Origin: a virus
Lineage: Duplodnaviria > Caudoviricetes
DNA: 51,561 bases
IMG/VR virus record: IMGVR_UViG_3300037245_001095
Span: 1-51,561 of that record
Strand: one strand, 5' to 3'
Numbering within the stretch: position 1 is the stretch's first letter; every line of letters begins with the position of its first letter. This document shows, piece by piece, positions 1,855-50,814 of the stretch. The notes under the pieces were generated by a model. That model ran no database searches and was not told where the DNA came from. It saw only the letters and a program-made list of their open reading frames with translations. Position numbers and translations under genes: made by a program.

Positions 1855-3279
1855 ATGCAGCAAAAAGAAATTATTTTTGGAGCTCCTGGTTGTGGAAAGA
1901 CAACTTATTTGATAAATGTATTGAAAGAAGTATTAAAATCATATGCTCCTGAAAGAATCGCTATTGTTTCTTTCACTAAGAAAGGAGCATATGAATTATT
2001 GAACAGAGCATTAGCAGAATTTGATTTGCCAGAAGATGCTTTTCCATATGCCAGAACATTACATTCAATTTGTTTTAGAGCATTAAATATGTCAATTTAT
2101 GACATGCTATCAAAGAATGATTATCGTGATTTTTCAAAGGCAATGAATATGAACTTTGTTGGTTATTATACAGAAGAGTTTTTCCATAATGATGATCGCT
2201 TTTTACATTTATATTTCTTGAAGCAAAATAATTATGACATGTATATAAAAGTACGTGATGCTATGCAAGAGAATATTATTACTTTGAAACATGTTGCACA
2301 TAATTATAAGCGTTATAAAGAACATGCAAAGAAACATGACTTCACAGATATGCTATTAAATACAATAAAAAAAGATATAAATCTTGATATTGATATTGCA
2401 ATTATAGATGAAGCTCAGGACCTTACAACATTGCAATGGGACACGTGCGACGTGCTATTTAAAAATGCCAAAAGAATATATATTGCTGGTGATGATGATC
2501 AAGCAATATATGAATGGACTGGTGCAGATATAACAAGATTCTTGAGTATTGATGGCACCAAAACAATCCTTAATAAAAGTTGGAGATTAAGAAGTAATCT
2601 ATTAACTTTTGCTAAGAAGATAACAAGTAAAATTGATGTTCGAGTTGATAAAGATTTTAAACCTCTTGAAGAGGGCGGTAATATTCATTACTATAATACA
2701 ATAAAAGATTTTAAATTTAATCCAGAAGAAAGTTATTATTGTTTAGCACGTAATAATTATTATTTAAAACGTTATACTACTGAACTCAAAAGACAGACTT
2801 TGATATTTCAACATAAGCATAAATTATCTGCAGACCCAGATATTATTCATGCCATAAACAGTTTCAATGCTTATAAGAAAGGTGAAGCACTCGACAAAGA
2901 TGCTATTAAAGTGCAGAAATATTTAAAAAAAGATGCTAAGCATATTGATAAATTATCTTGGTTTGAGTGCTTTAATTTAAAACCAGATGATATTTTCTAT
3001 TACAGAAAGTTGATTCAAAATAAGGTTGAAATTACCGAACCAAAGATAACAGTCAATACAATACATGGTGTAAAGGGAGGTGAAGCAGATAATGTAATAC
3101 TATTTATGGATGTCACTAAAGTTGTATATCATAATTTATATACATTGAGTGACAGTGAATTAAGATGTCTATATGTCGCATGTACAAGAGCAAAATTTAA
3201 CTTGCATATTATTCATGCCGAGACCAAGTACAGTTACACAGAAATATTTAAGGAGTTGAATAATGAGTATAATCTTTGA
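1855..3279 (+). CDS. UvrD/Rep-like SF1 DNA helicase
   Basis: GAPGCGKT Walker A, IIDEAQD, AGDDDQAIY, TIHGVKGGEAD and LYVACTRAK motifs. Confidence 0.93.
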   Translation: MQQKEIIFGAPGCGKTTYLINVLKEVLKSYAPERIAIVSFTKKGAYELLNRALAEFDLPEDAFPYARTLHSICFRALNMSIYDMLSKNDYRDFSKAMNMNFVGYYTEEFFHNDDRFLHLYFLKQNNYDMYIKVRDAMQENIITLKHVAHNYKRYKEHAKKHDFTDMLLNTIKKDINLDIDIAIIDEAQDLTTLQWDTCDVLFKNAKRIYIAGDDDQAIYEWTGADITRFLSIDGTKTILNKSWRLRSNLLTFAKKITSKIDVRVDKDFKPLEEGGNIHYYNTIKDFKFNPEESYYCLARNNYYLKRYTTELKRQTLIFQHKHKLSADPDIIHAINSFNAYKKGEALDKDAIKVQKYLKKDAKHIDKLSWFECFNLKPDDIFYYRKLIQNKVEITEPKITVNTIHGVKGGEADNVILFMDVTKVVYHNLYTLSDSELRCLYVACTRAKFNLHIIHAETKYSYTEIFKELNNEYNL

Positions 3280-3730
3280 AGGTGTAGACGGAACAGGAAA
3301 AACAACAAGAGCTAAAGAATTTCCAAGAATATATACAGGTCATTATGATTATATACATAATCATGATAAAACAAGAAAACCTGTTGATATAGAAAGTGAA
3401 GTGACAAAGGAAATGTTACTAATGACATATTGTGATAAGATTTTATTTGATCGCAGTTATATTATATCAGAATATATTTATTCTAAAGTTCTAAGAAGAG
3501 AAACTCCCGTGACACTTGATTATGTCAAAGCTCTTATTGAATTGATAAACTTAAGAAGTCATACAGTTAATTTATTTGTTTTTAAGGACAGAGATAAATT
3601 GATTCTTAAAGATGAAGATAGCAAATTACCGTTCATTGAATTGAATAATGCTTATCTACAATTGTTTGATATTGATGTAAAAGTTGAAAGAATGGCAGTT
3701 GTAATTATTGATGATAGGAGTCCAATATGA
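3263..3730 (+). CDS. thymidylate/dNMP kinase-like P-loop protein
   Basis: IIFEGVDGTGKTT P-loop and LFDRSYIISEYIY; adjacent to thyX. Confidence 0.75.
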   Translation: MSIIFEGVDGTGKTTRAKEFPRIYTGHYDYIHNHDKTRKPVDIESEVTKEMLLMTYCDKILFDRSYIISEYIYSKVLRRETPVTLDYVKALIELINLRSHTVNLFVFKDRDKLILKDEDSKLPFIELNNAYLQLFDIDVKVERMAVVIIDDRSPI

Positions 3731-4326
3731 AAATGATTAAACAATATATTAAAGTAATCACACCAGAAAGTGAATATAAAGTATTCGCCTCGCGTATAGA
3801 GAATATCGCACGGGTCTGTTATCAGTCAGCTGGTAAAGATGTAACATCAAAATTTATTCGTAGCTTAATTAAAAGTGGTCATGAGGCAATGATTGAACAT
3901 AGTAGTTTATCAATTTCATTTATCACTGATCGTGCTACAGCAAATGCTCTTGTAAGACATAGACATTGTTCCTTTGCACAGGAGAGTACACACTATATCA
4001 ATTATGCCAAAAAGTATGGTGATCTTACTTGTATAAGACAAGTAGCAATTGAAGATCAAGAGACTTTTGAATCAATGTTATATGACATTGAAAGTGATTA
4101 TATTAAATTGAGTAACGAAAAGTCAAAAGCTAAAAGAGCTTTATTACCATTAGCCTTTAAGACTGAGTTGGTTATCACAACAAACTTAAGTGAATGGAGA
4201 TCAATCTTGAAACGAAGAACTTCAAAGAAAGCTCATCCTCAAATGCAAGATATTATGCTTAAGGTACTTGATTGGTTTAAACAAGAATTACCAATATTTG
4301 TGGAGGATATAGATGCAGAAAGATAA
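3727..4326 (+). CDS. thyX: FAD-dependent thymidylate synthase
   Basis: ThyX signature RHRHCSFAQES, plus GHEAMIEH and TNLSEWR...AHPQM. Confidence 0.93.
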   Translation: MKMIKQYIKVITPESEYKVFASRIENIARVCYQSAGKDVTSKFIRSLIKSGHEAMIEHSSLSISFITDRATANALVRHRHCSFAQESTHYINYAKKYGDLTCIRQVAIEDQETFESMLYDIESDYIKLSNEKSKAKRALLPLAFKTELVITTNLSEWRSILKRRTSKKAHPQMQDIMLKVLDWFKQELPIFVEDIDAER

Positions 4327-4648
4327 CCGCGATGATATTTATGAGCGACTTGAAAAACAGAATGGTCGTAATAATCAAGTCATAAAAGCAATTGAAGAGT
4401 TTGCCGAGTTAATAAAAGAATTAACAAAACAACTTGGCAAAGATACATATACGAGTACTAAAAATATCTGTGAAGAAATAGCTGATGCTCGTGTTTGTCT
4501 TGAACAACTTGAGAGATTCTTTGACCCAAATGGTATTGCAGTTGAAATAGTTATAGACTATAAACTTCGTAGACTTGAGATGTTTTATCTTAAGGCTGAT
4601 GATACTATTGATGATGATGACTTAATTTTCAAGTCGATAGATAAATGA
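4313..4648 (+). CDS. MazG-like nucleotide pyrophosphohydrolase
   Basis: KAIEEFAELIKE...ICEEIADARVCLEQL (EExxE...EExxD pattern). Confidence 0.75.
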   Translation: MQKDNRDDIYERLEKQNGRNNQVIKAIEEFAELIKELTKQLGKDTYTSTKNICEEIADARVCLEQLERFFDPNGIAVEIVIDYKLRRLEMFYLKADDTIDDDDLIFKSIDK

Positions 4649-21744: not shown

Positions 21745-22175
21745 TATAGGCCCCTCCTTGGCACAAAGATTCTTCTATATTTACTAATGCTACCATCATC
21801 ATTACCACCAGTGATACTTCTATCATCATTAGGTTCTGACATGATACTTAAATATGCAGTCACAAAGGTTTGAAAAGTGTAACCTTCATTGTCAGTAAGC
21901 CGTTTTCGATTTAACAATAATGGCAACTCATTTTCAATATAAGTATTCAATTCATTGATATATCCTGTTGGCCAATGAGCCTCAACTACAAAAGGCATTA
22001 CTGTATTATCTGTTAAATAATATGCGTCTACTGCATAATCATCATAGACAACAATATATGGCTCAAGATTATCATCAGTATTTCTACCATTTAAATATGT
22101 CTGATAATTTCCACGAGTATATATAGTAACTATTGAACCTGTTTTTAATTGGTCCATAATTGCTTTTAATATCAT
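21744..22175 (-). CDS. tail terminator-like protein
   Basis: Size, synteny and PYIVV motif. Confidence 0.6.
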   Translation of the reverse strand: MILKAIMDQLKTGSIVTIYTRGNYQTYLNGRNTDDNLEPYIVVYDDYAVDAYYLTDNTVMPFVVEAHWPTGYINELNTYIENELPLLLNRKRLTDNEGYTFQTFVTAYLSIMSEPNDDRSITGGNDDGSISKYRRIFVPRRGL

Positions 22176-22555
22176 GTAGTATCTCCATATAGACGTTTCA
22201 AGTCAGCTTCAATCATTGGTAAAAATCTATCAACCATTGCTGGGAAAGATGCGAACCTTCCGCCATAATCTTCTTCTAAATTTTTAGCATACCAAGTATC
22301 ATTTGCAAATGTGATACCCATTCTTGCTCCTGGTACTTGCCAAGCCTTTGCAAAAAAGCCTCGTACAGCTTCAAATGTATGATTCGTCCAAAACATACCT
22401 TTTGTTTCAGCAGAAGCACTTCCCTGTACTTGTATAAACCATTTCATAGCTTCTGCGGCATAATGTGCAAAAATATTATATGACTCTCGTTCATATTCAT
22501 CAAATGTTTTTGAAATACGTGTTACGACTGCAGCCATGCCTACTAACTTAAACAT
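22172..22555 (-). CDS. tail completion protein (HK97 gp10-like)
   Basis: WTNHT...YAKNLE motif; synteny. Confidence 0.6.
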   Translation of the reverse strand: MFKLVGMAAVVTRISKTFDEYERESYNIFAHYAAEAMKWFIQVQGSASAETKGMFWTNHTFEAVRGFFAKAWQVPGARMGITFANDTWYAKNLEEDYGGRFASFPAMVDRFLPMIEADLKRLYGDTT

Positions 22556-22743
22556 TATCCACCTAACTCTAATTGAATAAGAATATTTGAAGCAATACCT
22601 AATGCTTCTCTTTTTGGTATAAATAATGTATGTGCATGCATTGAACAGTCATTAGATAATACAACAGCAATCTTATCATTATCTTTGCCATCTTCAATAA
22701 CAACAGGTTCATCATCATCAATCATAATCAGTTCTTCAGCCAT
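22555..22743 (-). CDS. hypothetical protein
   Basis: Coupled small ORF in the neck module. Confidence 0.55.
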   Translation of the reverse strand: MAEELIMIDDDEPVVIEDGKDNDKIAVVLSNDCSMHAHTLFIPKREALGIASNILIQLELGG

Positions 22744-23143
22744 TGTAGTCTCCTATGTCTCTACTAGTAATTTGTTCAAGATCACATAATCTATATGTTA
22801 TTTCACCAAATATTCTTCTTTTTTCTGGTAATTTGGTTTTCCATTTTTCATCATTATATTGAAAAGTAATACCTTTCTTTAACCAGGTGGCATCCCATTG
22901 AACTAATAAATAATATACATCTTGATAATCATAAGGTGTTCTTGAACCAGTTACAATTGGGTCTGGTAACCTTCTACGACATACGCGACCTATACCCAAT
23001 ATTGTAGGAACTGCAGTCTGATCAATGTCAGGTACTTGAATACCATAACCATTATCTTTAGTTGGTCTTACTGGCGATGTTATAGTGATTTGATTCTCAC
23101 TAATATATTGTATCATAGTCTCGCGTATGATCAAATAACTCAT
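22736..23143 (-). CDS. head closure / stopper protein
   Basis: KDNGYG motif; size and synteny. Confidence 0.6.
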   Translation of the reverse strand: MSYLIIRETMIQYISENQITITSPVRPTKDNGYGIQVPDIDQTAVPTILGIGRVCRRRLPDPIVTGSRTPYDYQDVYYLLVQWDATWLKKGITFQYNDEKWKTKLPEKRRIFGEITYRLCDLEQITSRDIGDYNG

Positions 23144-26686: not shown

Positions 26687-28022
26687 TATCTTTTACCTCC
26701 TGATGTTTTATAAATGTCTCAGCCATTTCAAAAACATCCAATTCAACTAATGTATTATATATTTCTTCATTTGTTACATACTTACCCATTTTCTCAAATG
26801 CCTTAGCAAATGCTTCAACTATCTCAGACTGTTCCTTGACACTGGCAAAGTTTGGTTTTGGCCATTGCATTGTAATATCTGCTTTTAAATTTTTAAGATT
26901 AACAAAGTTATATATCATGATTATAATATCATATACATCAAGCCATGGTTGTGTTCTTTCTTGCTGTTTAGCTTCAATCTTCTTAATCCAAACAGGTCTG
27001 TATTCTTTAACTGATGCTAATGAAGTTCCAATATTAGCACCAAAGTTAATCTCAGGGGTCTCTGAACCCTCAACAATATTTGTGAAAGCTGTTTCTGATA
27101 TACTATTAAAATCACCAGTGGTCTTGTTCAAGTACAGATAAGCAACATCATCATCCAGACCGTTAATAAACAAATCACGATCAGCCATTGATATTGAGCC
27201 CTTGCCTGCTGTTATATTGGCATATGTCCCGGAACCAAAGTTATTATCAACCCATTGTGCAGGTTTTGCAGTTGTAACCTTTAATTTAGGATGCCCATCA
27301 CGACTCTGTGCAGCTCCTGCTTCATATGTTAATTCATGATAGAACTTTAATTGAGGCTCAATACTTTCAATGTCAGAATGCCCATACAGATCGCCAATAT
27401 CACGATCATTACTAAAATGTACGATAGGCAAAATACCAAAGGGGTTACGCATCTTTTTAATTTCACTTTTACTACCTTCTATGGTCATAATCATTATATC
27501 TTTAGTAATGATATACGTAATTGTTATAGTCTGATTTGCTTCTGTTGGTGTATCATAGTTCACTGTTTCAACAAGCTTATAACCAAGTATTTTCTTAGTT
27601 ATAGGATCAATGAATATCTGATTTACAACATCAATAGGAATATGTACAAGTTTAATAACTTGATCTTCATCATCCCACTGAGGCCAAACAAAAATATCAC
27701 CTTCAATGTCCATTGACTTGTGAACTTTTCTATAGTCTATTTTTACATCATCAATTACACTAATCACTTTTTTATTATCAAACAATGTTGGCATACCAAT
27801 AAAGTTTGCATTATTATTTATAATTGGTTTAACAAGATGAGCTGCCAATGTATAATACTTATTTGTATTATGATACAATTGTCTTGCTAAAGTTCGATCT
27901 GTTTTTATTGGATTGCTATAATCCTTCTCACCTTGTGTTTCACCTTGTACAACTAACGTGACATTCTGTTGCTGTGCATTTGAACCAAATAATTTACCAA
28001 GCCATTCTGTTACACTCGCCAT
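26577..28022 (-). CDS. portal protein (SPP1 gp6-like)
   Basis: NPFGILPIVHFSN...YGHSDIE motif; follows the terminase. Confidence 0.9.
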   Translation of the reverse strand: MASVTEWLGKLFGSNAQQQNVTLVVQGETQGEKDYSNPIKTDRTLARQLYHNTNKYYTLAAHLVKPIINNNANFIGMPTLFDNKKVISVIDDVKIDYRKVHKSMDIEGDIFVWPQWDDEDQVIKLVHIPIDVVNQIFIDPITKKILGYKLVETVNYDTPTEANQTITITYIITKDIMIMTIEGSKSEIKKMRNPFGILPIVHFSNDRDIGDLYGHSDIESIEPQLKFYHELTYEAGAAQSRDGHPKLKVTTAKPAQWVDNNFGSGTYANITAGKGSISMADRDLFINGLDDDVAYLYLNKTTGDFNSISETAFTNIVEGSETPEINFGANIGTSLASVKEYRPVWIKKIEAKQQERTQPWLDVYDIIIMIYNFVNLKNLKADITMQWPKPNFASVKEQSEIVEAFAKAFEKMGKYVTNEEIYNTLVELDVFEMAETFIKHQEVKDSEIKKQETKENNSRKQEANNEGADSGSEAEPDDTEE

Positions 28023-29314
28023 TATCTACCACCATATGCTGACATGCCCTGTGCTAAACCTGGTACTGAAATTGTACCCTCTGGTTCATAATAACACAGA
28101 ACTAATCCATCAGCTCTATCAGGAGACTTATGTAATGCATGTGTGTGTAATGCAAATTCTTTTTTAGGTTCCAATTTCATTACTTCATAGCCTCGTTTTC
28201 CATTTATATAGCCATACTTTCTTGTATAAAGTTGTATAGCTAATTCTTCATCTATTGGTATATCTGCAAATTCAAGCTTTTCTTTCATCTCGAAGTACAT
28301 TTCAGTTACAACATCTTCATAATGCTTTTTATCTTTTGGAGTCCCACCAAAATTAATTCTGAATACATTATAACCATCATCTTCTGCAAGGTCAGCTACT
28401 GCTGAACCAAGATGCCCATTATCAATATTTATAAGACTATTCTTAGTTGCGAATGTCTTCAAATCTCTTAATGTTTCAACTGCACCCTGATACCGTGCTG
28501 TGTAATAATCAACAGTCTTCATATCAATACGCTTGTAGAAAGTTATTTCATCTCCACCTTGATGCGCAATATCTGCACCAATTATCGGTACACTTGGCCT
28601 GGGCCGCTTGATGATTCTTTGCTGTGCACCTTCAACAAGTTCTGCAGGACAAACAAATGTTTCATTGGCGTCTGCAAGTACACCTTCCCAGATATGATCG
28701 GCACGGTTCACATCCCTTTTATAGTCAGCGTCTTTCTCTTGCATCAATGACTTTGGAAACCAAGGATTATCCTCCCAGTTTAAAAATAAGACTTCTGCAC
28801 CATCATCTGTGTTTCTGATATAGTCCACGTATACCGGGTCACTGGAATAGCGAGGATTAAAATCCCACCAGAATACTGCAGTCTCCTTTCTAATCGTTGG
28901 TCTCAATATATCAATTGACTGTCTAGATATTGACTGTGCCTCAGCCACCCAACATCTATCTGCACCTTCAAGTGACTTAATACTGTCACTGTTATGCTCA
29001 TGCAAACCGGCGAATACAAATTTCGTGCCATTAAGGCCACGAATCTCAGTCTTCGTAACCTTATAAAAATAACCCCAGCCAAACAATTTAATTGTGTCGA
29101 CAAGCAATTTCTGTACTGAGTACTGAATTGACTTCTGGACTTCACGGACACAAACAATAAAAAGTTCTTCTGACATTCCTTCTAATAATAATATTCTTGC
29201 GATGGACCAAGAGGCTCCTTTACCACGACCACCATAAACAATACGATGTCGTTTATCGCAACCAATAACAAGACGTGTATGTATCTTCTGAATAATTTTT
29301 ACTGTTTGTTTCAC
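28022..29314 (-). CDS. terL: terminase large subunit (PBSX-like)
   Basis: YGGRGKGAS Walker A, CVREVQKSI, SIKSLEG, WVAEAQ, FNP; nuclease GADIAHQGGD and SPDRADG. Confidence 0.95.
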   Translation of the reverse strand: MKQTVKIIQKIHTRLVIGCDKRHRIVYGGRGKGASWSIARILLLEGMSEELFIVCVREVQKSIQYSVQKLLVDTIKLFGWGYFYKVTKTEIRGLNGTKFVFAGLHEHNSDSIKSLEGADRCWVAEAQSISRQSIDILRPTIRKETAVFWWDFNPRYSSDPVYVDYIRNTDDGAEVLFLNWEDNPWFPKSLMQEKDADYKRDVNRADHIWEGVLADANETFVCPAELVEGAQQRIIKRPRPSVPIIGADIAHQGGDEITFYKRIDMKTVDYYTARYQGAVETLRDLKTFATKNSLINIDNGHLGSAVADLAEDDGYNVFRINFGGTPKDKKHYEDVVTEMYFEMKEKLEFADIPIDEELAIQLYTRKYGYINGKRGYEVMKLEPKKEFALHTHALHKSPDRADGLVLCYYEPEGTISVPGLAQGMSAYGGR

Positions 29315-29676
29315 TTCTCGTCCTTGTCAAAATCACGACCTTCACCTTCTAAGTTAATAGTATCAGGCACGGGTGATTTCTCACCTTTGTCTGTATTCTT
29401 GAACTTCTCTGGCCATAACAAAGCACCAAGATCCATTGCTCCTTTATGAGCTATTCGTTGGTCGTTATCTCCCATACTTGTTACTACAGTTGATATGATA
29501 TCTTCTCTTATTTCAGCATCTTCATAATTGACCCGGAACATGAATGACGTGTCACGTAATAATAGAGCTTTTTCATCAGAAGTTAAGTCAGCTTTCATCA
29601 TAGCAATATCAAGATCATATGATCTCTTATAATGCATAATGACTTCTTCTTTCTTTTCGTCTAAAGGCTTCTGCAC
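29311..29676 (-). CDS. terminase small subunit (by position)
   Basis: GTG start after AGGGG; helical; WPEKF motif; overlaps the terL start. Confidence 0.65.
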   Translation of the reverse strand: MQKPLDEKKEEVIMHYKRSYDLDIAMMKADLTSDEKALLLRDTSFMFRVNYEDAEIREDIISTVVTSMGDNDQRIAHKGAMDLGALLWPEKFKNTDKGEKSPVPDTINLEGEGRDFDKDEK

Positions 29677-29732
29677 GTCACGTCCCCTATTTAAAGCTAT
29701 CTGAATCTATAAAAATAGACTCCTCCATAATC

Positions 29733-29761
29733 ATTATAATTCAGCATAAGTCATATGTCAA
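29733..29761 (-). promoter_or_regulatory. consensus sigma70 promoter for the late operon
   Basis: On the - strand TTGACA (29761-29756), 17-bp spacer, TATAAT (29738-29733). Confidence 0.85.
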
Positions 29762-29871
29762 GAGAATATATCATTTTTTCTATATATTAGGTTTAATAGA
29801 TTATTATATATAGCATATCTGAATGGCAGATGTCTAAAATGTCTAAAATGGATTAAAAATCAATCTTCATA

Positions 29872-29956
29872 TCGTCAATGACTGTCAATGATTCGATTTT
29901 CAGTGGTGTATCTATATCCCTGATATAGGGATACTTTAGTCGTCAATGACGATTGA
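29872..29956. repeat. dispersed element copy 3, upstream of the late promoter
   Basis: Boxes at 29872 and 29940; hairpin TATCCCT-GATAT-AGGGATA at 29915-29933. Confidence 0.85.
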
Positions 29957-30266
29957 TCTTTTAGATGAATAAATCTGGGATTTATCTGGTAAATGTGAGA
30001 AATATTGAGGTTTAAGTGGTTTTTAACTAGTTTTAAGGGATATTTGAAACATTATATATGATACAGATTGCATGACCCTGGTCACTTGCCCGACACCATC
30101 ATGGGATATTTTTAGGACATGCGACGTATCTGAATCATAAAACTCAAAATGCACCATAGAGATAGAAGGCTATATAAGGCCCGGGCTATATAGACTTTTC
30201 CGAATATACCTGATGATATATATTTCTTTACTTGAATATATAAATAATTATATATATAAATTATTC

Positions 30267-30406
30267 CATACTCCTGGCCATTAGATTATTATCTAATGAT
30301 ATGATTATCTATTATGAATTGAATCATCATATATGATTTATTATATATATGATCTTTGCTATATATGAAATATCACATGCTCCAGGTTATTAGATTATTA
30401 TCTAAT
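30267..30406. repeat. two 31-bp direct repeats, each CCWGG plus an 18-bp inverted repeat
   Basis: CATnCTCCWGGYYATTAGATTATTATCTAAT at 30267-30297 and 30376-30406. Confidence 0.8.
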
Positions 30407-30783
30407 ATTATAATGCTCTATTCTAATTATGAATATAAAATTATTTATACATTGATGATATGATATATTATATTATTTGAATATAAAAATAATTCTATAT
30501 TGATGATAGATTATTTTATATATGAAATTATCTCTATATATTAAAAATTATAAATTATTCTATATTCTTTATATATATGAATTATTATATATTATAAATA
30601 AATTATTATTGATAGTCATTATCATTTATCATTATCAATATATCATTATCCCTATATTGAAAATAGAAATTATTATTGATAATCATTATCAATAATCATT
30701 ATATATCTATCTATATATGATTATTGCTATATAAGAAATCGTTTTTTTATTTTCAATAATTGATGATTATTTTCTTAAATCAA

Positions 30784-30812
30784 TTGATTTTTTTAGATAT
30801 ATGATGTATATT
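30784..30812 (+). promoter_or_regulatory. sigma70-like early promoter
   Basis: TTGATT-17-TATATT; spacer resembles that of the 33375 promoter. Confidence 0.6.
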
Positions 30813-30845
30813 GATAATAGATTAAATGATTAAAAGAGGTTAATT

Positions 30846-31094
30846 ATGAATGAAAATGAAAAGAAAATGAATAATTTGATTATTGAAAAGAAAAGATTGA
30901 TAATCAGAATTGACCGATTATTGAATGATATTAAGATTATCAATAATTCAGATCAATATTTAAGAATTAGAAATTATTCTATAATGAAGAATAGAATATC
31001 ATTATTGAAAGAATTATCATTCTATAAGATTGATCTTGATAATAGAATCTATTATCTTGATTTTCAGATTGATAATGAAAAGAGAGGTTTTTAA
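30846..31094 (+). CDS. early hypothetical protein (composition-restricted)
   Basis: AAGAGGT RBS; 82 aa. Confidence 0.7.
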   Translation: MNENEKKMNNLIIEKKRLIIRIDRLLNDIKIINNSDQYLRIRNYSIMKNRISLLKELSFYKIDLDNRIYYLDFQIDNEKRGF

Positions 31095-31328
31095 ATGAAA
31101 ATGAATAATCAAGAAGTTGATTTTATTGAAAATTATTTTGAGATTGATAAAAAGGTTTTAGTTAGAGAGATAATTCAAAATCATATTTTTGAATTAAGAA
31201 AATCGGTTGATGATATTTTAAAAAGTTATATTCAGAATATCGTGAAAATATCAAATATTGATTTTGATAATTTTAGTGAATCAAAAATTATTGATATAAT
31301 GAAAAAAAGGTTATATCATAATTCTTGA
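31095..31328 (+). CDS. early hypothetical protein (composition-restricted)
   Basis: GAGAGGT RBS; 77 aa. Confidence 0.7.
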   Translation: MKMNNQEVDFIENYFEIDKKVLVREIIQNHIFELRKSVDDILKSYIQNIVKISNIDFDNFSESKIIDIMKKRLYHNS

Positions 31329-31337
31329 TAATCAAAA

Positions 31338-31417
31338 TATAATCTGAGATTGATTTCTCAGATTATAATCAAATATTCAATTTCTTGAATATTTGATTAT
31401 AATCTTATGATTATAAT
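31338..31417. repeat. overlapping perfect inverted repeats
   Basis: 12-bp arms at 31338-31349/31356-31367 and 21-bp arms at 31360-31380/31385-31405. Confidence 0.9.
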
Positions 31418-31441
31418 ATTAAATTGAAAAGAGGTTTTTAG

Positions 31442-31738
31442 ATGAAATTATCAGAGCAAAGAATCAATCAAATATCAGAAAAGATTATTGACGAAATGAA
31501 TGAAATAGTTATAAATGAATTTGATTATCTTAATTTCAATCATCATTCAGAATATCTTGATTTTATAAATCCAATTTTTGATAAGGTTTTAGAAAAATTG
31601 AAAATCAATAATGATGATGAATCAAAATTAAAAGAATTAAAAATCAGATATGATAATTTATCTAATGACGAAAATAATGATAATTCAAATGAATTAGATT
31701 TTATTCATTATCAGATATTAAAATTAGAAAATCATTAG
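31442..31738 (+). CDS. early acidic hypothetical protein (composition-restricted)
   Basis: AAGAGGT RBS; 98 aa. Confidence 0.7.
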   Translation: MKLSEQRINQISEKIIDEMNEIVINEFDYLNFNHHSEYLDFINPIFDKVLEKLKINNDDESKLKELKIRYDNLSNDENNDNSNELDFIHYQILKLENH

Positions 31739-31811
31739 AAATTATGAGAGATTAAGAAATCTCTCTTGAAAGATTATTTTTAATTAAATGATCTTTTTAG
31801 AAAGATTTTTC

Positions 31812-31841
31812 TTGACAAGATTCAGATATCTATGATATAAT
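31812..31841 (+). promoter_or_regulatory. strong sigma70 promoter
   Basis: TTGACA-18-TATAAT with extended -10 TG. Confidence 0.8.
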
Positions 31842-31989
31842 GAATTAGAATCAAGAGATTGAAATGGATCTTTGACAATTTAGAGAAGGGAAATTGAATA
31901 TTTGAATATAGATAAAATCATATATTCGATTGACTCAAAATCATCATGAGAATAAACAGATGATAAAATCCAAAACAAGAGGTAGAGAA

Positions 31990-32442
31990 ATGAACGAATT
32001 GACAAAGGATATGACAATGGAAGACAAAGCGAAATTTGATGAAGGCAAGAAAGTCGCAGCCGAAGCCTACAAAGCCAGAAAGGCAGAAGCCAGAGAGACA
32101 ATCACAAAATGGATTGCAGACGAACCGAAAGTTGATACGAAAGTTCTTGAAGCGATTAAGTATCTTGCAGGTACAGGTGTAAGGTCAGTAAGAACCGGTG
32201 TAAGTTTGGAATTGAGAAACTTACTCGAAGCCGGTCCCGTTTCAACCGTAGATATATTCAATAAGTTTGAATATGGCCGACCAACCATGCAACAGAAAAT
32301 CAATGATTTTATCAAGAAAGGCGAACCGAAAGATAGAATCTGGGTTGCACTTGCAGATGGGAAATATTCCATAGTTGGCAGAGGACCTAATCCGCCTAAA
32401 GGTTGGATTGGTTACTTGCCCGTAGTAAAAGAAGAACTCTAA
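31990..32442 (+). CDS. monocistronic early protein with winged-HTH-like domain
   Basis: Start moved to ATG 31990 (AGAGGTAGAGAA); GPVSTVDIFNKFEYGRPTMQQKINDFIKKG resembles a wHTH. Confidence 0.7.
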   Translation: MNELTKDMTMEDKAKFDEGKKVAAEAYKARKAEARETITKWIADEPKVDTKVLEAIKYLAGTGVRSVRTGVSLELRNLLEAGPVSTVDIFNKFEYGRPTMQQKINDFIKKGEPKDRIWVALADGKYSIVGRGPNPPKGWIGYLPVVKEEL

Positions 32443-32463
32443 GAGAGTGAGAAGCAGACATGT

Positions 32464-32490
32464 GGCCCGGAGAAATCCGGGCTTTTTTAT
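32464..32490 (+). terminator. intrinsic terminator
   Basis: GGCCCGGA-GAAA-TCCGGGCT followed by a T run. Confidence 0.9.
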
Positions 32491-32519
32491 TTGTCCCATG
32501 TCACAGGCCATAGAGTGTC

Positions 32520-33020
32520 ATCGGCTTGAAGCTTAAAAAGATAGTCAGGTGTACATGTCCCGGCTTGAAGCTTAAAAAGCCAATTATACCTTAAAAAGCA
32601 TATAATACCCATAAAATAGCTAAAATAACGCAGGCCACGGGCCACAGAGCGTGATTCAGATACACAATATATTATCATTAGTCTAGTTTCAAAAATGTTT
32701 GTATACATTGTATACGGATTAAAAAGATTTGTAACAATATAATTCCTTATTATATATAGAGATATACAAAATATATACAATATATACAAAGATACAGACA
32801 AATATGAAAACGGCGATATGCCCCTTTTTAGACATTGTTAAAAAAGCTAGTGTAACGTGTATACTTTGTATATATTGCTCCATAAGTCCTTACCCTGTAT
32901 AGAATTAAAAATATTTCCAATATATACAATATATACAAACTTTTTTGAAACTTGACTAATGATTATATATGATATATCCAAAAAGATACATAAGTCCTTA
33001 CAACATAAGGAATTATCCTT
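32520..33020. other. non-coding repeat-rich region, candidate replication origin
   Basis: 19-bp direct repeat at 32522/32561; ATATATACAA iterons; CATAAGTCCTTAC-N8-GAATTA at 32881 and 32989. Confidence 0.5.
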
Positions 33021-33374
33021 TTATATGATTTCGTATGATTTCAGAGGTGGTCCTTTATATGAGTGTATATATTTCGTCAATGGAAATATGATGATTAGCC
33101 CGGGCCACGTGGCCTGTATCATATATCCAATAACTAGTATCATATGACAAAGAGCAAGAGACATACACACTATAATACACAACAGAGATAGAGACAGCCA
33201 GTGACACGTATCAAGTATCCCGCAACCTGTGACACACAGAGAGAGTAGCCTGTCACATAGAGTTGAATCAATTAGATGAATATCTAATTCATCAATAAAT
33301 CTTCATCTATGAAGATTTTTCTATATATAATTTTCGCTATATAAGAAAGGACCTCATTTATTTTTTTATTTCTC

Positions 33375-33403
33375 TTGATTCTTTTAGATATATAGATTAT
33401 AAT
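33375..33403 (+). promoter_or_regulatory. sigma70-like promoter for the long early operon
   Basis: TTGATT-17-TATAAT with an upstream T-tract. Confidence 0.7.
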
Positions 33404-33515
33404 GATTATAGAGATTTTTTCATTATATAGAAAGGAGAAGATCATGTAAAGAATGAGCAAGAGAGTACAAAATAAATCAAAGGTGACTCACTGCGAGTCA
33501 CCAAAGGAGCAGATA

Positions 33516-49183: not shown

Positions 49184-49460
49184 GTTAATTGTGACAAGAC
49201 ATACTGCACTTGTGGCTTATTTAATTGAAAAAGGTTATGTAGATAAAGACACTCCACATATTGCACATGCAGATGTTGAGGATGTAAAAGGTAAGCATGT
49301 CTATGGAATCTTACCAAATTGGTTGGCATGTCATGCTGACAAATTTACAGAGGTACAATTAAGATTGCCAGTTGATAAAAGGGGTGCTGAACTATCATTA
49401 AAAGATGTAAAATTTTATATTGTAGAACCAAAAACATATACCATAAGGAGAGTAATATGA
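49176..49460 (+). CDS. csx16: Csx16-like protein (candidate cyclic oligoadenylate ring nuclease)
   Basis: VTRHxAL...H...HVYGILPxWLA...LPxxxRGxELS matches the Csx16 pattern (SRHxGA...VxGxLPxxLA...LPxxxRGxELS); AAGGAGG RBS. Confidence 0.8.
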   Translation: MDKLIVTRHTALVAYLIEKGYVDKDTPHIAHADVEDVKGKHVYGILPNWLACHADKFTEVQLRLPVDKRGAELSLKDVKFYIVEPKTYTIRRVI

Positions 49461-50017
49461 GTATAGAAAAAGTAGAAGTTCCTGCATTTCTGTTAGACAC
49501 AAATGATGCTGGTGTTGATGAAAATGATATGCAGAATCTTGATGATCTGATTCGTCAATATGATTCAGCAGCTGAAAAAGTTGAGAAGGCTGAACAGATA
49601 TTGAAACTTTATAAAAAAGATTTCAATGAATTGTCTTTGACCCTGATACCACAGTTCTTATTATCGCATGGCATAAGCAAAATGTCATTAGTTGATGGTC
49701 GAGAAGTCACAATTAAAGAAGATATTTCTGCAACTGTGTCTGATGAACCAGCTTTTAGAAAATGGTTAAGAGACCGAAAAGAAGAGGCTATCATCAAAGT
49801 TAAATATATCTTTGGCCAAATGAAAGATAATGAAATGACAAAATTGACTGATTTCTTATTTACTGGTGATTATGAATTTGAAATTGATGAAAGTATCCAT
49901 GCACAAACCAAAAAGAAATATTTCAAAGGTCTGATCGCAGAAATTGGCCGAGATAATTTACCAGAGTTTGTGGGTATTTATGATATTCGCAAAACTATTA
50001 TCAAAATTAAAAAATAA
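49457..50017 (+). CDS. conserved phage replication-module protein
   Basis: Coiled coil, then IPQFL..GI...WLR...IIK...IHAQT pattern. Confidence 0.7.
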   Translation: MSIEKVEVPAFLLDTNDAGVDENDMQNLDDLIRQYDSAAEKVEKAEQILKLYKKDFNELSLTLIPQFLLSHGISKMSLVDGREVTIKEDISATVSDEPAFRKWLRDRKEEAIIKVKYIFGQMKDNEMTKLTDFLFTGDYEFEIDESIHAQTKKKYFKGLIAEIGRDNLPEFVGIYDIRKTIIKIKK

Positions 50018-50079
50018 AATCAGTTGTTAACTGATTCATAATTTTATAAAGCGAGCAAGATTCGCAAAGGAGCCGCAAG

Positions 50080-50814
50080 ATGGCTGAAGCAAAAAAAGAG
50101 CAGATGGATTTTATTGAGGAGGGCATAGATAAGCTTGAAGGATTTGAAGATGTAAATGCCAAAACAATGGCAATTCCATTTATTAAATTGGCACAAGACC
50201 TTACCAATGAAACAAAGAAACAAAAAGATGTATATATTGAAGGTCTTGAAACAGGAATGTTTTTCAATGCAGGTACTCAGGAAATACTTGGTGATAATTT
50301 TGATATGATTATCCTTAAGTTTGAAAGAGTATATATTGAATGGAAGCCAGACCGGGGTGGTTTTGTATCTTATCATACACCAGAGAATGCAGAAAGACTC
50401 GCAACAAATAAATTAAAATTTGGTCACTGGAAAAATGATGTTGGTAATGAGTTTAATGAATATTACACTTATTATGGCCTAATGGCTGGCAGAGAGGAAG
50501 AAGGTTTAATTATTTTTTCAATGGCCTCAACAAATATTAAGACTGCAAAAGTCTTAAACAAAGTTATGACAACACACAAAATGCCTAATGGTAAAATTGC
50601 ATTACCATATTATCTGATATGGAATGTCAAAACTGCGAATGCCGAAAAGAATGGTCAAGATTGGTTTGCCCCAAAGTTTAGGTTCAAGGACTATATCAAT
50701 GAGCAGCAGTATAACATTATTATCGGTGAACGCAAAGCATTACCAGATAAGCGTGTAGATTATGCTCTTCTTGAAGATCGCACTGAATCACAATATAGTG
50801 ATGATGATCTTTAA
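50080..50814 (+). CDS. putative phage-type ssDNA-binding/annealing protein
   Basis: GFED...MAIPFIKLAQ...YIEWKP..GGFV motif, acidic C-tip; lies between helicase and nuclease genes. Confidence 0.6.
   Translation: MAEAKKEQMDFIEEGIDKLEGFEDVNAKTMAIPFIKLAQDLTNETKKQKDVYIEGLETGMFFNAGTQEILGDNFDMIILKFERVYIEWKPDRGGFVSYHTPENAERLATNKLKFGHWKNDVGNEFNEYYTYYGLMAGREEEGLIIFSMASTNIKTAKVLNKVMTTHKMPNGKIALPYYLIWNVKTANAEKNGQDWFAPKFRFKDYINEQQYNIIIGERKALPDKRVDYALLEDRTESQYSDDDL

What the first reader, a model, noticed from the sequence alone, without database searches (positions are those of the whole stretch)
30200..31930. Restricted-alphabet island: C almost only as TC, G almost only as GA; three genes with no Ala, Thr, Cys or Trp
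Seen: over ~1.7 kb the dinucleotides AC, GC, CC, GG and CG nearly vanish and GT is rare; 30961-31080 has only GA and TC contexts. Many exceptions are functional: GAGGT RBSs, TTGACA boxes and the two CCWGG repeats. The three RBS-bearing ORFs (257 residues) contain no Ala, Thr, Cys or Trp, one Gly and one Pro. Low GC alone cannot explain this, because Thr (ACW) costs no more GC than the abundant Ser, Asp and Glu codons. A second patch covers the promoter at 33265-33450. Known: T5 and T7 first-entering DNA is depleted of restriction sites and expresses counter-defence genes. Inference: this is the leading end of the genome, purged of nearly all possible recognition sites at the cost of amino-acid choice, and its proteins are first-wave anti-defence factors.
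Basis: partly seen in the sequence, partly recalled or inferred. Interest (0 to 1): 0.8.

Follow-up and report, generated by a model that had tools for sequence, protein, structure and literature searches.

The report
Reduced-alphabet early gene cassette in phage
A 1.7-kb block of early promoters and three tiny genes in a marine-sediment phage is written almost only with A, T, "GA" and "TC", a rule kept at the same spot in three related phages, most likely so that the first-expressed DNA offers host restriction enzymes almost nothing to recognise.

Summary
Between about 30,300 and 31,985 the base 5' of C (both strands) is T in 255 of 311 cases, while the 3' neighbour is unconstrained. AC/GT and GC fall to 0.24x and 0.30x of the genome's own odds. 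The rule crosses codon boundaries and distorts synonymous choice. It nearly removes Ala, Thr, Gly, Pro, Cys and Trp from three SD-led ORFs. Beyond dinucleotide content, G/C-containing 6-bp palindromes number 3 against 17 expected, the extreme of 30 genome windows. The same TC/GA island sits at the same locus, between the terS-side noncoding region and a conserved 150-aa gene, in three further phage lineages. Two other relatives lack it, and one of these carries an ORF1 homologue in ordinary DNA. Best reading, confidence 0.4: an immediate-early, probably anti-defence cassette under DNA-level selection for minimal recognisable sequence. This is an extreme form of the site avoidance known for T5 and T7 leading DNA. 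The physical end is not shown. The terminase resembles a headful type and contigs bridge the junction. Rivals include a context-specific cytosine-directed enzyme footprint.

The parts
28022..29314 (-). large terminase subunit
   Evidence: Pfam Terminase_3, E 1.3e-25. Nearest solved chain 4IDH/4IFE 'Gene 2 protein', E 5.8e-41 over residues 22-231.
29311..29676 (-). small ORF in the terS position (121 aa)
   Evidence: Position upstream of and overlapping TerL. Conserved in L122, L124, L125, L126 and L137. No family hit.
29677..30199 (.). ordinary-composition noncoding region with conserved short repeats, a candidate pac/regulatory region that ends in a hairpin plus T-run at about 30165-30200
   Evidence: GC 32%, AC/GT odds 0.67. 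GTCAATGA appears three times and TATCTGAAT three times; both are also present in L006 and L124. A 12/12 sigma-70 consensus promoter on the minus strand at 29761-29733 faces terS.
30200..30845 (+). AT-rich leader of the island: repeats, two CCWGG elements (30273, 30382), two 15-bp palindromes (30610-30624, 30677-30691), and a promoter-like site at 30784-30812
   Evidence: GC 14.8%, AC/GT 0.20, GA/TC 1.77. Repeat families D1-D6. Palindrome matches with 1 and 0 mismatches. Promoter scan.
30846..31094 (+). ORF1, 82 aa, basic (+5), helical hairpin
   Evidence: AAAGAGGT lies 7 nt upstream. Homologues in L122 (z 6.9) and L125 (z 7.0), with 0 of 300 shuffles reaching the score. AF2 model with a 5-sequence alignment, pLDDT 95.1. 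Only itself found among 1.84 billion representatives.
31095..31328 (+). ORF2, 77 aa
   Evidence: GAGAGGT lies upstream. Weak homologue in L122 (z 3.5-3.9, P 0.003-0.007). No other relative found.
31338..31404 (+). two hairpins between ORF2 and ORF3 (terminator-like)
   Evidence: Inverted repeat I19 has 21-nt arms that are 100% complementary.
31442..31738 (+). ORF3, 98 aa, acidic (22 D/E against 11 K/R), predicted four helices
   Evidence: AAAGAGGT lies upstream. Charge. AF2 model pLDDT 74.5. No fold match with E below 4. No sequence relative found.
31739..31989 (+). hairpin (31746-31765), 12/12 consensus promoter with TG (31812-31841) and 5' leader of the next gene, still in the reduced alphabet
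   Evidence: GC 24%, AC/GT 0.26, GC dinucleotide count 0.
31990..32442 (+). conserved 150-aa gene ('gene4') of ordinary composition; marks the right border of the island
   Evidence: 13 homologues at 48-62% identity. GC 40%, AC/GT 0.84. NAC 19 of 72, pooled over the four island-bearing phages. Terminator at 32464-32483.
33265..33450 (+). second, weaker patch: a paralogous promoter segment in front of the next early operon
   Evidence: 78-85% identical to 30705-30821. AC/GT 0.13, GA/TC 2.08. Promoter-like site at 33375-33403.

Best explanation
The island is a discrete immediate-early cassette: tandem host-type promoters, three small genes, terminators, and the leader of the next gene. Its double-stranded DNA is under selection to carry as little recognisable sequence as possible. 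G and C are kept only where needed: GA for Asp, Glu and Arg(AGA) codons and for TTGA -35 boxes, and its complement TC. Every other G/C context is removed, even at the cost of dropping Ala, Thr, Gly, Pro, Cys, Trp and most Val. Palindromes that remain writable are avoided as well. The cassette can therefore be transcribed before sequence-specific host nucleases (Type II, and probably Type I/III/BREX-like systems of unpredictable specificity) find a site in it. Its small proteins then act on the host, probably against defences.

Shown: the composition rule, that it acts at the DNA level, the palindrome deficit, conservation of the locus, and the promoters and Shine-Dalgarno sites.

Inferred: that restriction is the selective agent, that this DNA is exposed first, and what the proteins do.
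For: 1. The rule acts on DNA, not on protein or codons.
- The 5' neighbour of C is T 255, A 28, C 18, G 10, while the 3' neighbour follows base composition.
- AC and GT on the coding strand are equally depleted: 0.23 and 0.23 over 12 island ORFs of four phages.
- Third-position G is followed by A in 78 of 95 cases, against 44% of codons starting with A.
- NTC is 27 of 147 against NAC 8 of 281, P 8e-8.

2. Site poverty goes beyond composition.
- G/C 6-bp palindromes number 3, against 17.3 (order-1 Markov) or 16.5 (order-2), with 0 of 1000 simulations as low.
- Mirror 6-mers (8 against 9.0) and non-palindromic G+C 6-mers (212 against 220) are normal.
- Codon shuffles of the three ORFs give 0 against 5.4 (P 0.0015) and 2 against 8.6 for 4-mers (P 0.0035).
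- The island window has the lowest ratio of 30 windows: 0.17, others 0.49-1.25.
- The island holds 395 distinct 6-mers, against 790-980 elsewhere.

3. The phage is under restriction pressure. ATTAAT occurs 11 times against 60 expected genome-wide, and 0, 3, 2 and 0 times in the four islands, against about 8 expected in each of the three islands for which searches give an expectation (none was printed for L137).

4. The feature belongs to the locus, not to particular genes.
- The same TC/GA island lies between the terS side and gene4 in L122 (=L123), L124 and L137, with 2-4 partly unrelated small ORFs.
- The ORF1 homologue in L125 is written in ordinary DNA: GC 27%, TC/GA share 0.38.
- The purge stops at the gene4 start codon even at synonymous sites (NAC 19 of 72).

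5. Expression signals are present: strong Shine-Dalgarno sites, promoter-like sites including a 12/12 consensus, and hairpins.

6. There is precedent. Restriction motifs matter only in the first-injected region of Murciavirus and of T5 (PMC12455610, abstract and discussion read). The T5 FST region shows 7-13 G/C palindromic 6-mers against 18-25 expected in my own count.
Against: - No physical end or stepwise DNA entry is shown. A Logan contig bridges the junction, and the three contigs of 48-52 kb break elsewhere.
- TerL is nearest to a terminase that I recall as headful. PMC12455610 notes that avoidance in the leading region is not expected for headful phages.
- The palindrome deficit is not distinctive in two of the four islands. 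In L124 it is 9 against 15.7 (P 0.048) and 17 against 21 for 4-mers. In L122 it is 4 against 10.4, but other windows of that locus are as low.
- The 4-mer deficit in the window is shared by mirror words (5 against 16.9), so it is not specific to palindromes.
- Site avoidance does not by itself predict a one-sided purine exclusion 5' of C.
- AT-only palindromes are not depleted as a class.
- The proteins match no known anti-defence family.
Confidence: 0.4

Rival explanations
1. The island is the footprint of an enzyme that reads cytosine together with its 5' base. One version is recurrent dsDNA cytosine deamination at non-TC (mainly purine-C) contexts on the exposed early DNA. Another is selection against purine-(modified)C half-sites of a McrBC-like modification-dependent nuclease. 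Either would leave C only as TC and G only as GA.
For: - The constraint is strictly on position -1 of C. Purines are 4-5x depleted, CC is about normal, and the 3' side is free.
- It is strand-symmetric: AC 0.23 and GT 0.23.
- AT, the product of deaminating AC or GT, is enriched 1.24x.
- TC/GA density is close to the genome's own: 15.1% against 11.4% of positions, from the counts.
- This -1 rule, and not palindrome avoidance, is the feature shared by all four islands.
- That McrBC recognises purine-mC, and that deaminases have -1 preferences, is recalled knowledge and was not tested here.
Against: - It does not predict the palindrome deficit beyond dinucleotide content and codon order.
- It stops exactly at the gene4 start codon, even at synonymous sites, and terS/terL are untouched.
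- 38 purine-C sites remain in 1.7 kb (both strands). That is too many to escape an enzyme needing only two half-sites.
- No cytosine methyltransferase or hydroxymethylase was found among the ORFs scanned.
- A full-text search found no report of deaminase footprints in phage genomes (listing only).
Confidence: 0.2
2. The island is a mosaic module that moves between related phages by recombination at the conserved flanks. Its composition is inherited from the pool it comes from, not maintained by anything acting at this locus.
For: - The borders are sharp and sit at conserved elements: the hairpin at about 30200 and the gene4 start.
- TerL identities among the eight lineages are star-like at 70-83%. 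Island carriers do not group together.
- ORF content differs between islands.
Against: - This only moves the question elsewhere. No genome or locus with this signature was seen among 17,879 control windows.
- No DNA match was found in 50,697 phage records.
- ATTAAT avoidance inside the islands matches that of the host genome backbone.
- The ORF1 family exists in both restricted and unrestricted DNA.
Confidence: 0.12
3. The alphabet is a by-product of densely packed protein-binding or promoter motifs, such as GATWAT hexamers (the Fur-box alphabet) or -35/-10-like words. The island would then be a regulator or RNA-polymerase binding array.
For: - GATAAT occurs 23 times and GATTAT 22 times, against 8.4 and 8.5 expected.
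- There are 47 GATWAT hexamers in the island, about 24 per kb against about 3 per kb elsewhere, in all three frames and in both orientations.
- An exact TGATAATCATTATCA and a one-mismatch copy lie 67 nt apart, upstream of the early promoter.
- The Fur consensus, as I recall it, contains G only as GA and C only as TC.
Against: - The hexamers hold only 47 of the 311 G/C in the island.
- The excess is specific to the window. GATAAT is at expectation in L122, L124 and L137: 8 against 6.3, 7 against 7.7 and 7 against 4.5.
- Promoter-like density is only 45 against 36.2 +/- 4.9.
- The FNR-type pattern is not enriched in the island.
Confidence: 0.1
4. Selection acts on the RNA. The immediate-early transcripts avoid AC- and GC-containing cleavage sites of sequence-specific toxin endoribonucleases (MazF-, ChpBK- or MqsR-like; specificities recalled), or they minimise structure for fast translation.
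For: - Island ORFs contain 18 AC and 7 GC in 2910 nt.
- The whole island may be transcribed from tandem upstream promoter-like sites.
- Leading regions of plasmids are adapted for translation (PMC13478746, abstract only).
Against: - GT is depleted exactly as much as AC on the coding strand (0.23 each). This points to a double-strand constraint.
- Palindrome avoidance is a DNA property.
- The amino-acid loss is not explained by codon adaptation.
Confidence: 0.08

Closest known systems
First-step-transfer (FST) region of phage T5 and the class I early region of T7 with gene 0.3 (Ocr)
   Same: Both have strong host-RNAP promoters followed by small early genes at the start of the early direction. 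Both are depleted of G/C palindromic hexamers. In my own count the T5 FST windows hold 7-13 against 18-25 expected, and T7 1-1686 holds 6 against 19.8. The concept is the same: early DNA must survive until counter-defence proteins are made.
   Different: T5 and T7 early DNA has ordinary GC (35-51%), no bias 5' of C (T share 0.21-0.31) and normal word diversity (900-1113 distinct hexamers, against 395 here). Their proteins use all amino acids. Their ends and stepwise entry are established; here they are not.
Leading-region restriction-motif avoidance in Murciavirus (PMC12455610) and leading regions of conjugative plasmids (PMC13478746, PMC11541004)
   Same: Selection by R-M is concentrated on the DNA that enters or is expressed first, and that DNA also carries variable small anti-defence genes (abstract and discussion of PMC12455610 read).
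   Different: In those cases one specific motif is lost. Plasmid leading regions are GC-rich and not consistently palindrome-depleted (abstract of PMC13478746). Here a whole class of dinucleotides is removed and the amino-acid repertoire shrinks.
Genome-wide palindrome or restriction-site avoidance in phages (PMC6286503, listing only)
   Same: There is a deficit of short palindromes relative to Markov expectation. ATTAAT occurs 11 times against 60 expected genome-wide.
   Different: Here the avoidance is local: one 1.7-kb window is the outlier among 30. It is also achieved mainly by restricting the alphabet.
APOBEC/AID-type hypermutation footprints in animal viruses, and DddA-type bacterial dsDNA deaminases (recalled; listing)
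   Same: The cytosine context is defined by the 5' base, with loss of C and G and gain of AT.
   Different: Here TC is the spared context, not the targeted one. The effect is confined to a gene cassette with intact, conserved ORFs, and palindromes are additionally avoided. No enzyme was identified.

Membership tests
Leading (first-entering) anti-defence region of a phage, T5 FST / T7 class I type | Lies at the physical end of virion DNA that enters first | not testable with these tools
   Only assembled contigs of one run were available, and one 11,945-nt contig bridges 26500-34500. TerL is Terminase_3, nearest to 4IDH, which I recall as a headful enzyme.
Leading (first-entering) anti-defence region of a phage, T5 FST / T7 class I type | Local depletion of restriction-type sites relative to the rest of the genome | tested here: met
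   G/C 6-bp palindromes are 3 against 17.3 expected. This is the lowest of 30 windows, and control word classes are normal. L137 also meets it: 3 against 8.7, the lowest of 10 windows. L122 and L124 are not distinctive.
Leading (first-entering) anti-defence region of a phage, T5 FST / T7 class I type | Host-RNA-polymerase promoters driving small genes inward from the end | tested here: met
   Consensus scan: sites at 30784-30812, 31812-31841 (12/12) and 33375-33403. Shine-Dalgarno sites precede all ORFs. This is sequence evidence only.
Leading (first-entering) anti-defence region of a phage, T5 FST / T7 class I type | Encodes a demonstrated counter-defence protein | tested here: inconclusive
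   No Pfam or PHROG hit below E 0.01. No homologues found outside this phage group. No fold match with E <= 0.001.
DNA-mimic anti-restriction proteins (Ocr, ArdA, Arn) | Small, strongly acidic protein with sequence or fold similarity to a known mimic | tested here: not met
   ORF3 is acidic (22 D/E, 11 K/R). Its model (pLDDT 74.5) has no PDB match with E below 4, and there is no family hit.
Fur box (7-1-7 motif, consensus recalled) | 15-bp inverted repeat TGATAATnATTATCA near a promoter | tested here: met
   Exact match at 30677-30691 and a one-mismatch copy at 30610-30624. No other site in the window has 1 mismatch or fewer. Binding cannot be tested with these tools.
Deaminase hypermutation footprint | Context-specific loss of C with transitions only, relative to an unedited homologue | tested here: inconclusive
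   The context rule is met. The noncoding regions of relatives are not alignable, and the ORF1 homologues are only 29-41% identical, so no substitution spectrum could be read.

The most novel reading that the evidence does not exclude
The strict 'no purine 5' of C, on either strand' rule is kept in four phage lineages, confined to the first early cassette, and stops at a start codon. It could be the evolutionary footprint of a bacterial enzyme that attacks cytosines by their 5' context on newly entered phage DNA. Such an enzyme could be a dsDNA deaminase or a purine-(m)C-directed nuclease. This would be a prokaryotic counterpart of APOBEC-shaped viral genomes, and the cassette would survive by keeping only the one context the enzyme spares.
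Probability: 0.15. Interest if true: 0.9.

Novelty: new variant of a known kind. Interest (0 to 1): 0.72.

Why it matters
If selection on early-exposed DNA can strip a gene cassette down to A, T, GA and TC, and force its proteins into a repertoire that nearly lacks Ala, Thr, Gly, Pro, Cys, Trp and Val, then host sequence-specific immunity shapes protein alphabets as well as site counts. The simple index used here, the share of C preceded by T in low-GC windows, could locate immediate-early counter-defence cassettes in uncultured phages without any homology. Twelve small ORFan proteins from four lineages are concrete candidates for new host-takeover or anti-defence functions. The one-sided cytosine rule also makes it directly testable whether bacteria use context-specific cytosine-directed enzymes against phage DNA.

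Tried and rejected
- Low GC alone: rejected by mononucleotide shuffles, low-GC control windows, low-GC control ORFs and the NTC-against-NAC test.
- A general property of this phage's promoters or intergenic DNA: rejected. The other 15 intergenic stretches have AC/GT odds of 0.56-1.23.
- Paralogy of ORF1-3 with normal-composition genes of the window: none found.
- FNR-type boxes: not enriched in the island.
- DNA similarity to 50,697 phage records: none.
- The promoter-word scan of viral contigs gave 37 chance loci. I used them only as compositional controls.
- Single-protein locus searches with gene4 and with the 33453 ORF found nothing. The alignment-based searches worked.
- The alignment of the noncoding leader with L006 was not reliable enough for a substitution spectrum.
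- Reads: only Logan contigs of one run were available, and that run may be the window's own source. Depth is per contig and no starts or ends were listed, so nothing can be said about termini.
- The ESM Atlas gave no usable feature hit for ORF3.
- Fold searches of ORF3 and ORF1 gave only generic helical bundles or hairpins. The best PDB hit for ORF1 was a DksA2 coiled coil at E 0.21, which is not significant.
- Base hypermodification: the cluster of a dNMP-kinase-like gene, ThyX and a MazG-like gene is compatible with ordinary dTMP supply. Genome-wide site avoidance argues against blanket protection by modification.
- Supplements of the papers were not consulted.
Full report
**What the window is.** The window is a 51,561-nt IMG/VR virus record, rated complete and labelled 'linear'. 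The same sequence is held in one marine-sediment run. It is a tailed phage with 33.7% GC.
- The minus strand from 8.6 to 29.7 kb carries a structural and packaging block: a tape-measure-like protein, TerL of Pfam Terminase_3, and a terS-position ORF.
- Rightward genes run from 30.8 kb onward. After the contig break they continue with replication genes: an AEP primase, a UvrD-like helicase, ThyX, PolA, SSB and an SNF2 helicase.
- The finding lies at the divergence point between terS and the first rightward genes.

**The observation.** It holds.
- Over the stated coordinates AC and GT are at 0.20 and 0.22 of expectation, and GA and TC at 1.96 and 1.95.
- The six avoided dinucleotides number 56, against 181 +/- 8.5 in 2000 shuffles.
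- The island is the only such place in the window.
- It lies beyond the maximum of 17,879 control windows from 116 other loci, 748 of them below 25% GC.
- The three ORFs carry 2 of 257 residues from the set Ala, Thr, Cys, Trp, Gly, Pro. Nine comparably AT-rich control ORFs carry 5-14%.
- The ORFs are real genes. Each has an AAAGAGGT-type Shine-Dalgarno site. ORF1 and ORF2 have homologues in related phages that survive composition-preserving shuffles: z 6.9 and 7.0 for ORF1, and 3.5-3.9 for ORF2.

**What the rule really is.** It is one-sided and strand-symmetric.
- Counting both strands, the base 5' of C is T 255, A 28, C 18, G 10. The 3' base simply follows composition: A 161, T 119, C 18, G 14.
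- Relative to the genome's own odds, AC/GT drop to 0.24x and GC to 0.30x. CG (0.98x), CA/TG (1.0x) and AG/CT (0.92x) are unchanged, and CC/GG is 0.66x.
- This is not general AT pressure. TC-ending codons are used as in the rest of the genome, whereas AC-ending codons nearly vanish. Pooled over 12 island ORFs of four phages, NTC is 27 of 147 and NAC 8 of 281, P 8e-8.
- The rule crosses codon boundaries. Third-position G is followed by A in 78 of 95 cases.
- AC and GT are equally depleted on the coding strand, at 0.23 each. This points to a constraint on the duplex and not on the mRNA.

**Site poverty.**
- In this alphabet only 480 of 4032 G/C-containing hexamers and 10 of 56 G/C-containing palindromic hexamers can be written. 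The island holds 395 distinct hexamers, against 790-980 in every other equal-sized window.
- The palindromes that can still be written are avoided as well. There are 3 against 17.3 (order-1 Markov) or 16.5 (order-2), with 0 of 1000 simulations as low.
- Mirror hexamers (8 against 9.0) and non-palindromic hexamers containing both G and C (212 against 220) are normal.
- Shuffling codons within the ORFs gives 0 against 5.4, P 0.0015.
- Among 30 windows of the genome, the island is the outlier at 0.17; the others range from 0.49 to 1.25.
- Two caveats. The 4-mer deficit (8 against 24.6) is shared by mirror 4-mers (5 against 16.9), so it is not specific. AT-only palindromes as a class are not depleted.
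- ATTAAT is a clear exception among AT-only words. It occurs 0 times in the island against 8.3 expected and 11 times against 60 expected genome-wide. This is a plain sign that the phage lives under Type II restriction.

**Relatives.**
- TerL-based and gene4-based searches recovered eight lineages with 70-83% TerL identity to one another.
- Six of them have enough sequence beyond terS to judge. Four of those six carry a TC/GA island at the same place, between the terS-side noncoding region and the conserved 150-aa gene4. The four are the window, L122 (=L123, 0 mismatches in 1812 nt), L124 and L137.
- In those islands GC is 16.5-18.7% and T is the 5' neighbour of C in 69-80% of cases. GC dinucleotides number 0 in the 1705 nt of L124.
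- Their 2-4 small ORFs are equally poor in Ala, Thr, Cys, Trp, Gly, Pro and Val.
- The first ORF is basic. It belongs to the ORF1 family in the window, L122 and L125 by the shuffle test. The L137 and L124 first ORFs align with it at 29% identity, but L124_1 did not pass the shuffle test and L137 was not put to it. The last ORF is acidic and about 100 aa. Otherwise the ORFs are unrelated.
- L125 and L126 (=L127) lack the island.
- L125 keeps an ORF1 homologue in ordinary DNA: GC 27%, TC/GA share 0.38, 7 of 64 residues from the avoided set.
- In L126 the noncoding leader shows the opposite bias, with A 5' of C up to 0.67.
- Word diversity is at its locus minimum in this leader in six of seven lineages.
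- Island carriers do not cluster by TerL identity.
- More distant relatives (TerL 53-66%) show no TC-type island in the 12 loci examined.
- The extra palindrome deficit is clear in the window and in L137 (3 against 8.7, the lowest of 10 windows). It is not distinctive in L122 and L124.
- The excess of GATWAT hexamers is specific to the window.

**Borders.**
- The left border is a conserved hairpin plus T-run at about 30,165-30,200.
- The right border is the start codon of gene4. Gene4 uses NAC in 19 of 72 NAY codons, pooled over the four island carriers.
- terS and terL are unaffected.
- The island is therefore a discrete unit. It is not the centre of a gradient.

**Interpretation.** My preferred reading, at confidence 0.4, is DNA-level selection for minimal recognisable sequence in an immediate-early cassette whose products probably act on host defences.
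- It accounts for the DNA-level nature of the rule and for the palindrome deficit beyond composition and codon order.
- It fits the genome-wide signs of restriction pressure and the fact that the feature belongs to the locus while the genes turn over.
- The choice of GA/TC is plausibly forced. GA is needed for Asp, Glu and AGA-Arg codons and for TTGA -35 boxes, and TC is its complement. That step is inference.
- The idea has documented relatives. Restriction motifs matter only in the first-injected DNA of Murciavirus and T5 (PMC12455610, abstract and discussion read).
- In my own count the T5 FST region is palindrome-poor but otherwise ordinary in GC, cytosine context and word diversity. The present case is therefore an extreme variant and not a member of a described class.
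- Plasmid leading regions are reported as GC-rich and not consistently palindrome-depleted (PMC13478746, abstract only).

**What is not shown.**
- The physical leading end is not shown. TerL is nearest to the 'Gene 2 protein' of 4IDH/4IFE, which I recall as the headful terminase of Sf6.
- Contigs from five assemblies run through the junction, and a Logan contig bridges it.
- If packaging starts at a pac site near terS and proceeds through terS and terL, as I recall for P22, the last-packaged and first-ejected DNA would end a few kb left of the island. The island would then be the first inward-reading transcription unit. That is inference only.
- The function of the proteins is unknown. ORF1 models as a helical hairpin (pLDDT 95.1 with five sequences) and ORF3 as four helices (pLDDT 74.5). 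Neither has a significant structural neighbour.

**Rivals.**
- The most interesting rival (confidence 0.2) starts from the fact that the conserved feature is a purine exclusion 5' of C, the kind of context read by cytosine deaminases or by purine-mC-dependent nucleases. It explains the one-sidedness better than site avoidance does. It does not explain the palindrome deficit, the stop at a start codon, or the 38 remaining purine-C sites. I found no cytosine-modifying enzyme in the phage and no report of such footprints in phages (listing only).
- Mosaic origin (0.12), motif arrays (0.10) and RNA-level selection (0.08) are each contradicted by at least one test described above.

**Verdict.** The compositional island is real, highly non-random and evolutionarily maintained. 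It is best seen as a new, extreme variant of restriction avoidance in early or leading-region DNA. The mechanism and the leading-end claim remain unproven.

Noticed in passing
window 30610-30624 and 30677-30691: There are two 15-bp palindromes, TGATAGTCATTATCA and TGATAATCATTATCA. The second is identical to the Fur-box 7-1-7 consensus as I recall it. They lie 67 nt apart, about 100-170 nt upstream of the early promoter. No other site in the window has 1 mismatch or fewer. They could be an operator for Fur or for a phage regulator.
   Followed up: partly
window, whole: ATTAAT is strongly avoided genome-wide: 11 observed against 60 expected. CTAG (13 against 64), GAATTC (2 against 9.5) and AGATCT (5 against 15) are also low. 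ATTAAT is also low in all four islands. This suggests hosts with an ATTAAT-specific R-M system.
   Followed up: partly
L126 5290-5900 (=L127); also L138, L140, L142, L146: In relatives without the TC/GA island, the noncoding leader after terS has the opposite bias. A is the 5' neighbour of C in up to 0.67 of cases and T in only 0.11, at GC 25-31%. Different lineages thus use different two-dinucleotide alphabets at the same locus.
   Followed up: partly
window 29698-30140; L006, L124: Short conserved words sit in the ordinary-composition region next to terS. TATCTGAAT occurs three times and (C)GTCAATGA(C) three times. Both recur in L006 and L124. They are candidate pac or terS-binding or regulatory sites.
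   Followed up: no
window 29761-29733 (-) and 31812-31841 (+): Two perfect 12/12 sigma-70 consensus promoters are present. One faces terS/terL and the other drives gene4, with an extended -10 TG. A consensus host promoter in front of the packaging genes is unexpected for a late operon.
   Followed up: no
window 32450-33250: This is a large noncoding region of ordinary composition. It holds a 56-nt inverted repeat (32659-32714 / 32923-32978, 88% complementary) and TATATACAATATATACAAA repeats. It may be an origin or a structured RNA.
   Followed up: no
window 3263-4648: Three adjacent genes encode a thymidylate-kinase-like P-loop protein (phrog_761), ThyX (Pfam Thy1, E 2e-31) and a MazG-like NTP pyrophosphohydrolase (phrog_2245). 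The trio is compatible with plain dTMP supply or with a non-canonical pyrimidine pathway.
   Followed up: no
window 22001-23000: This is the only other 1-kb bin with a raised GATWAT count: 13, against about 3 per kb elsewhere.
   Followed up: no
window 30273-30277, 30382-30386; L006; L124: CCWGG sits at the head of repeated elements in the leader. There are two copies in the window, four in L006 and at least two in L124. These are among the few G/C-rich words tolerated there.
   Followed up: no
L125 6612-6947; L126 6799-7137: Relatives without the island carry a Kyanoviridae Gp96-family gene (Pfam PF23790, E 3e-31 and 1e-28) between the first early ORFs and gene4. The window also has Pam3 gp33- and gp34-like genes at 49457-50814. 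Both are links to cyanophage gene pools.
   Followed up: no
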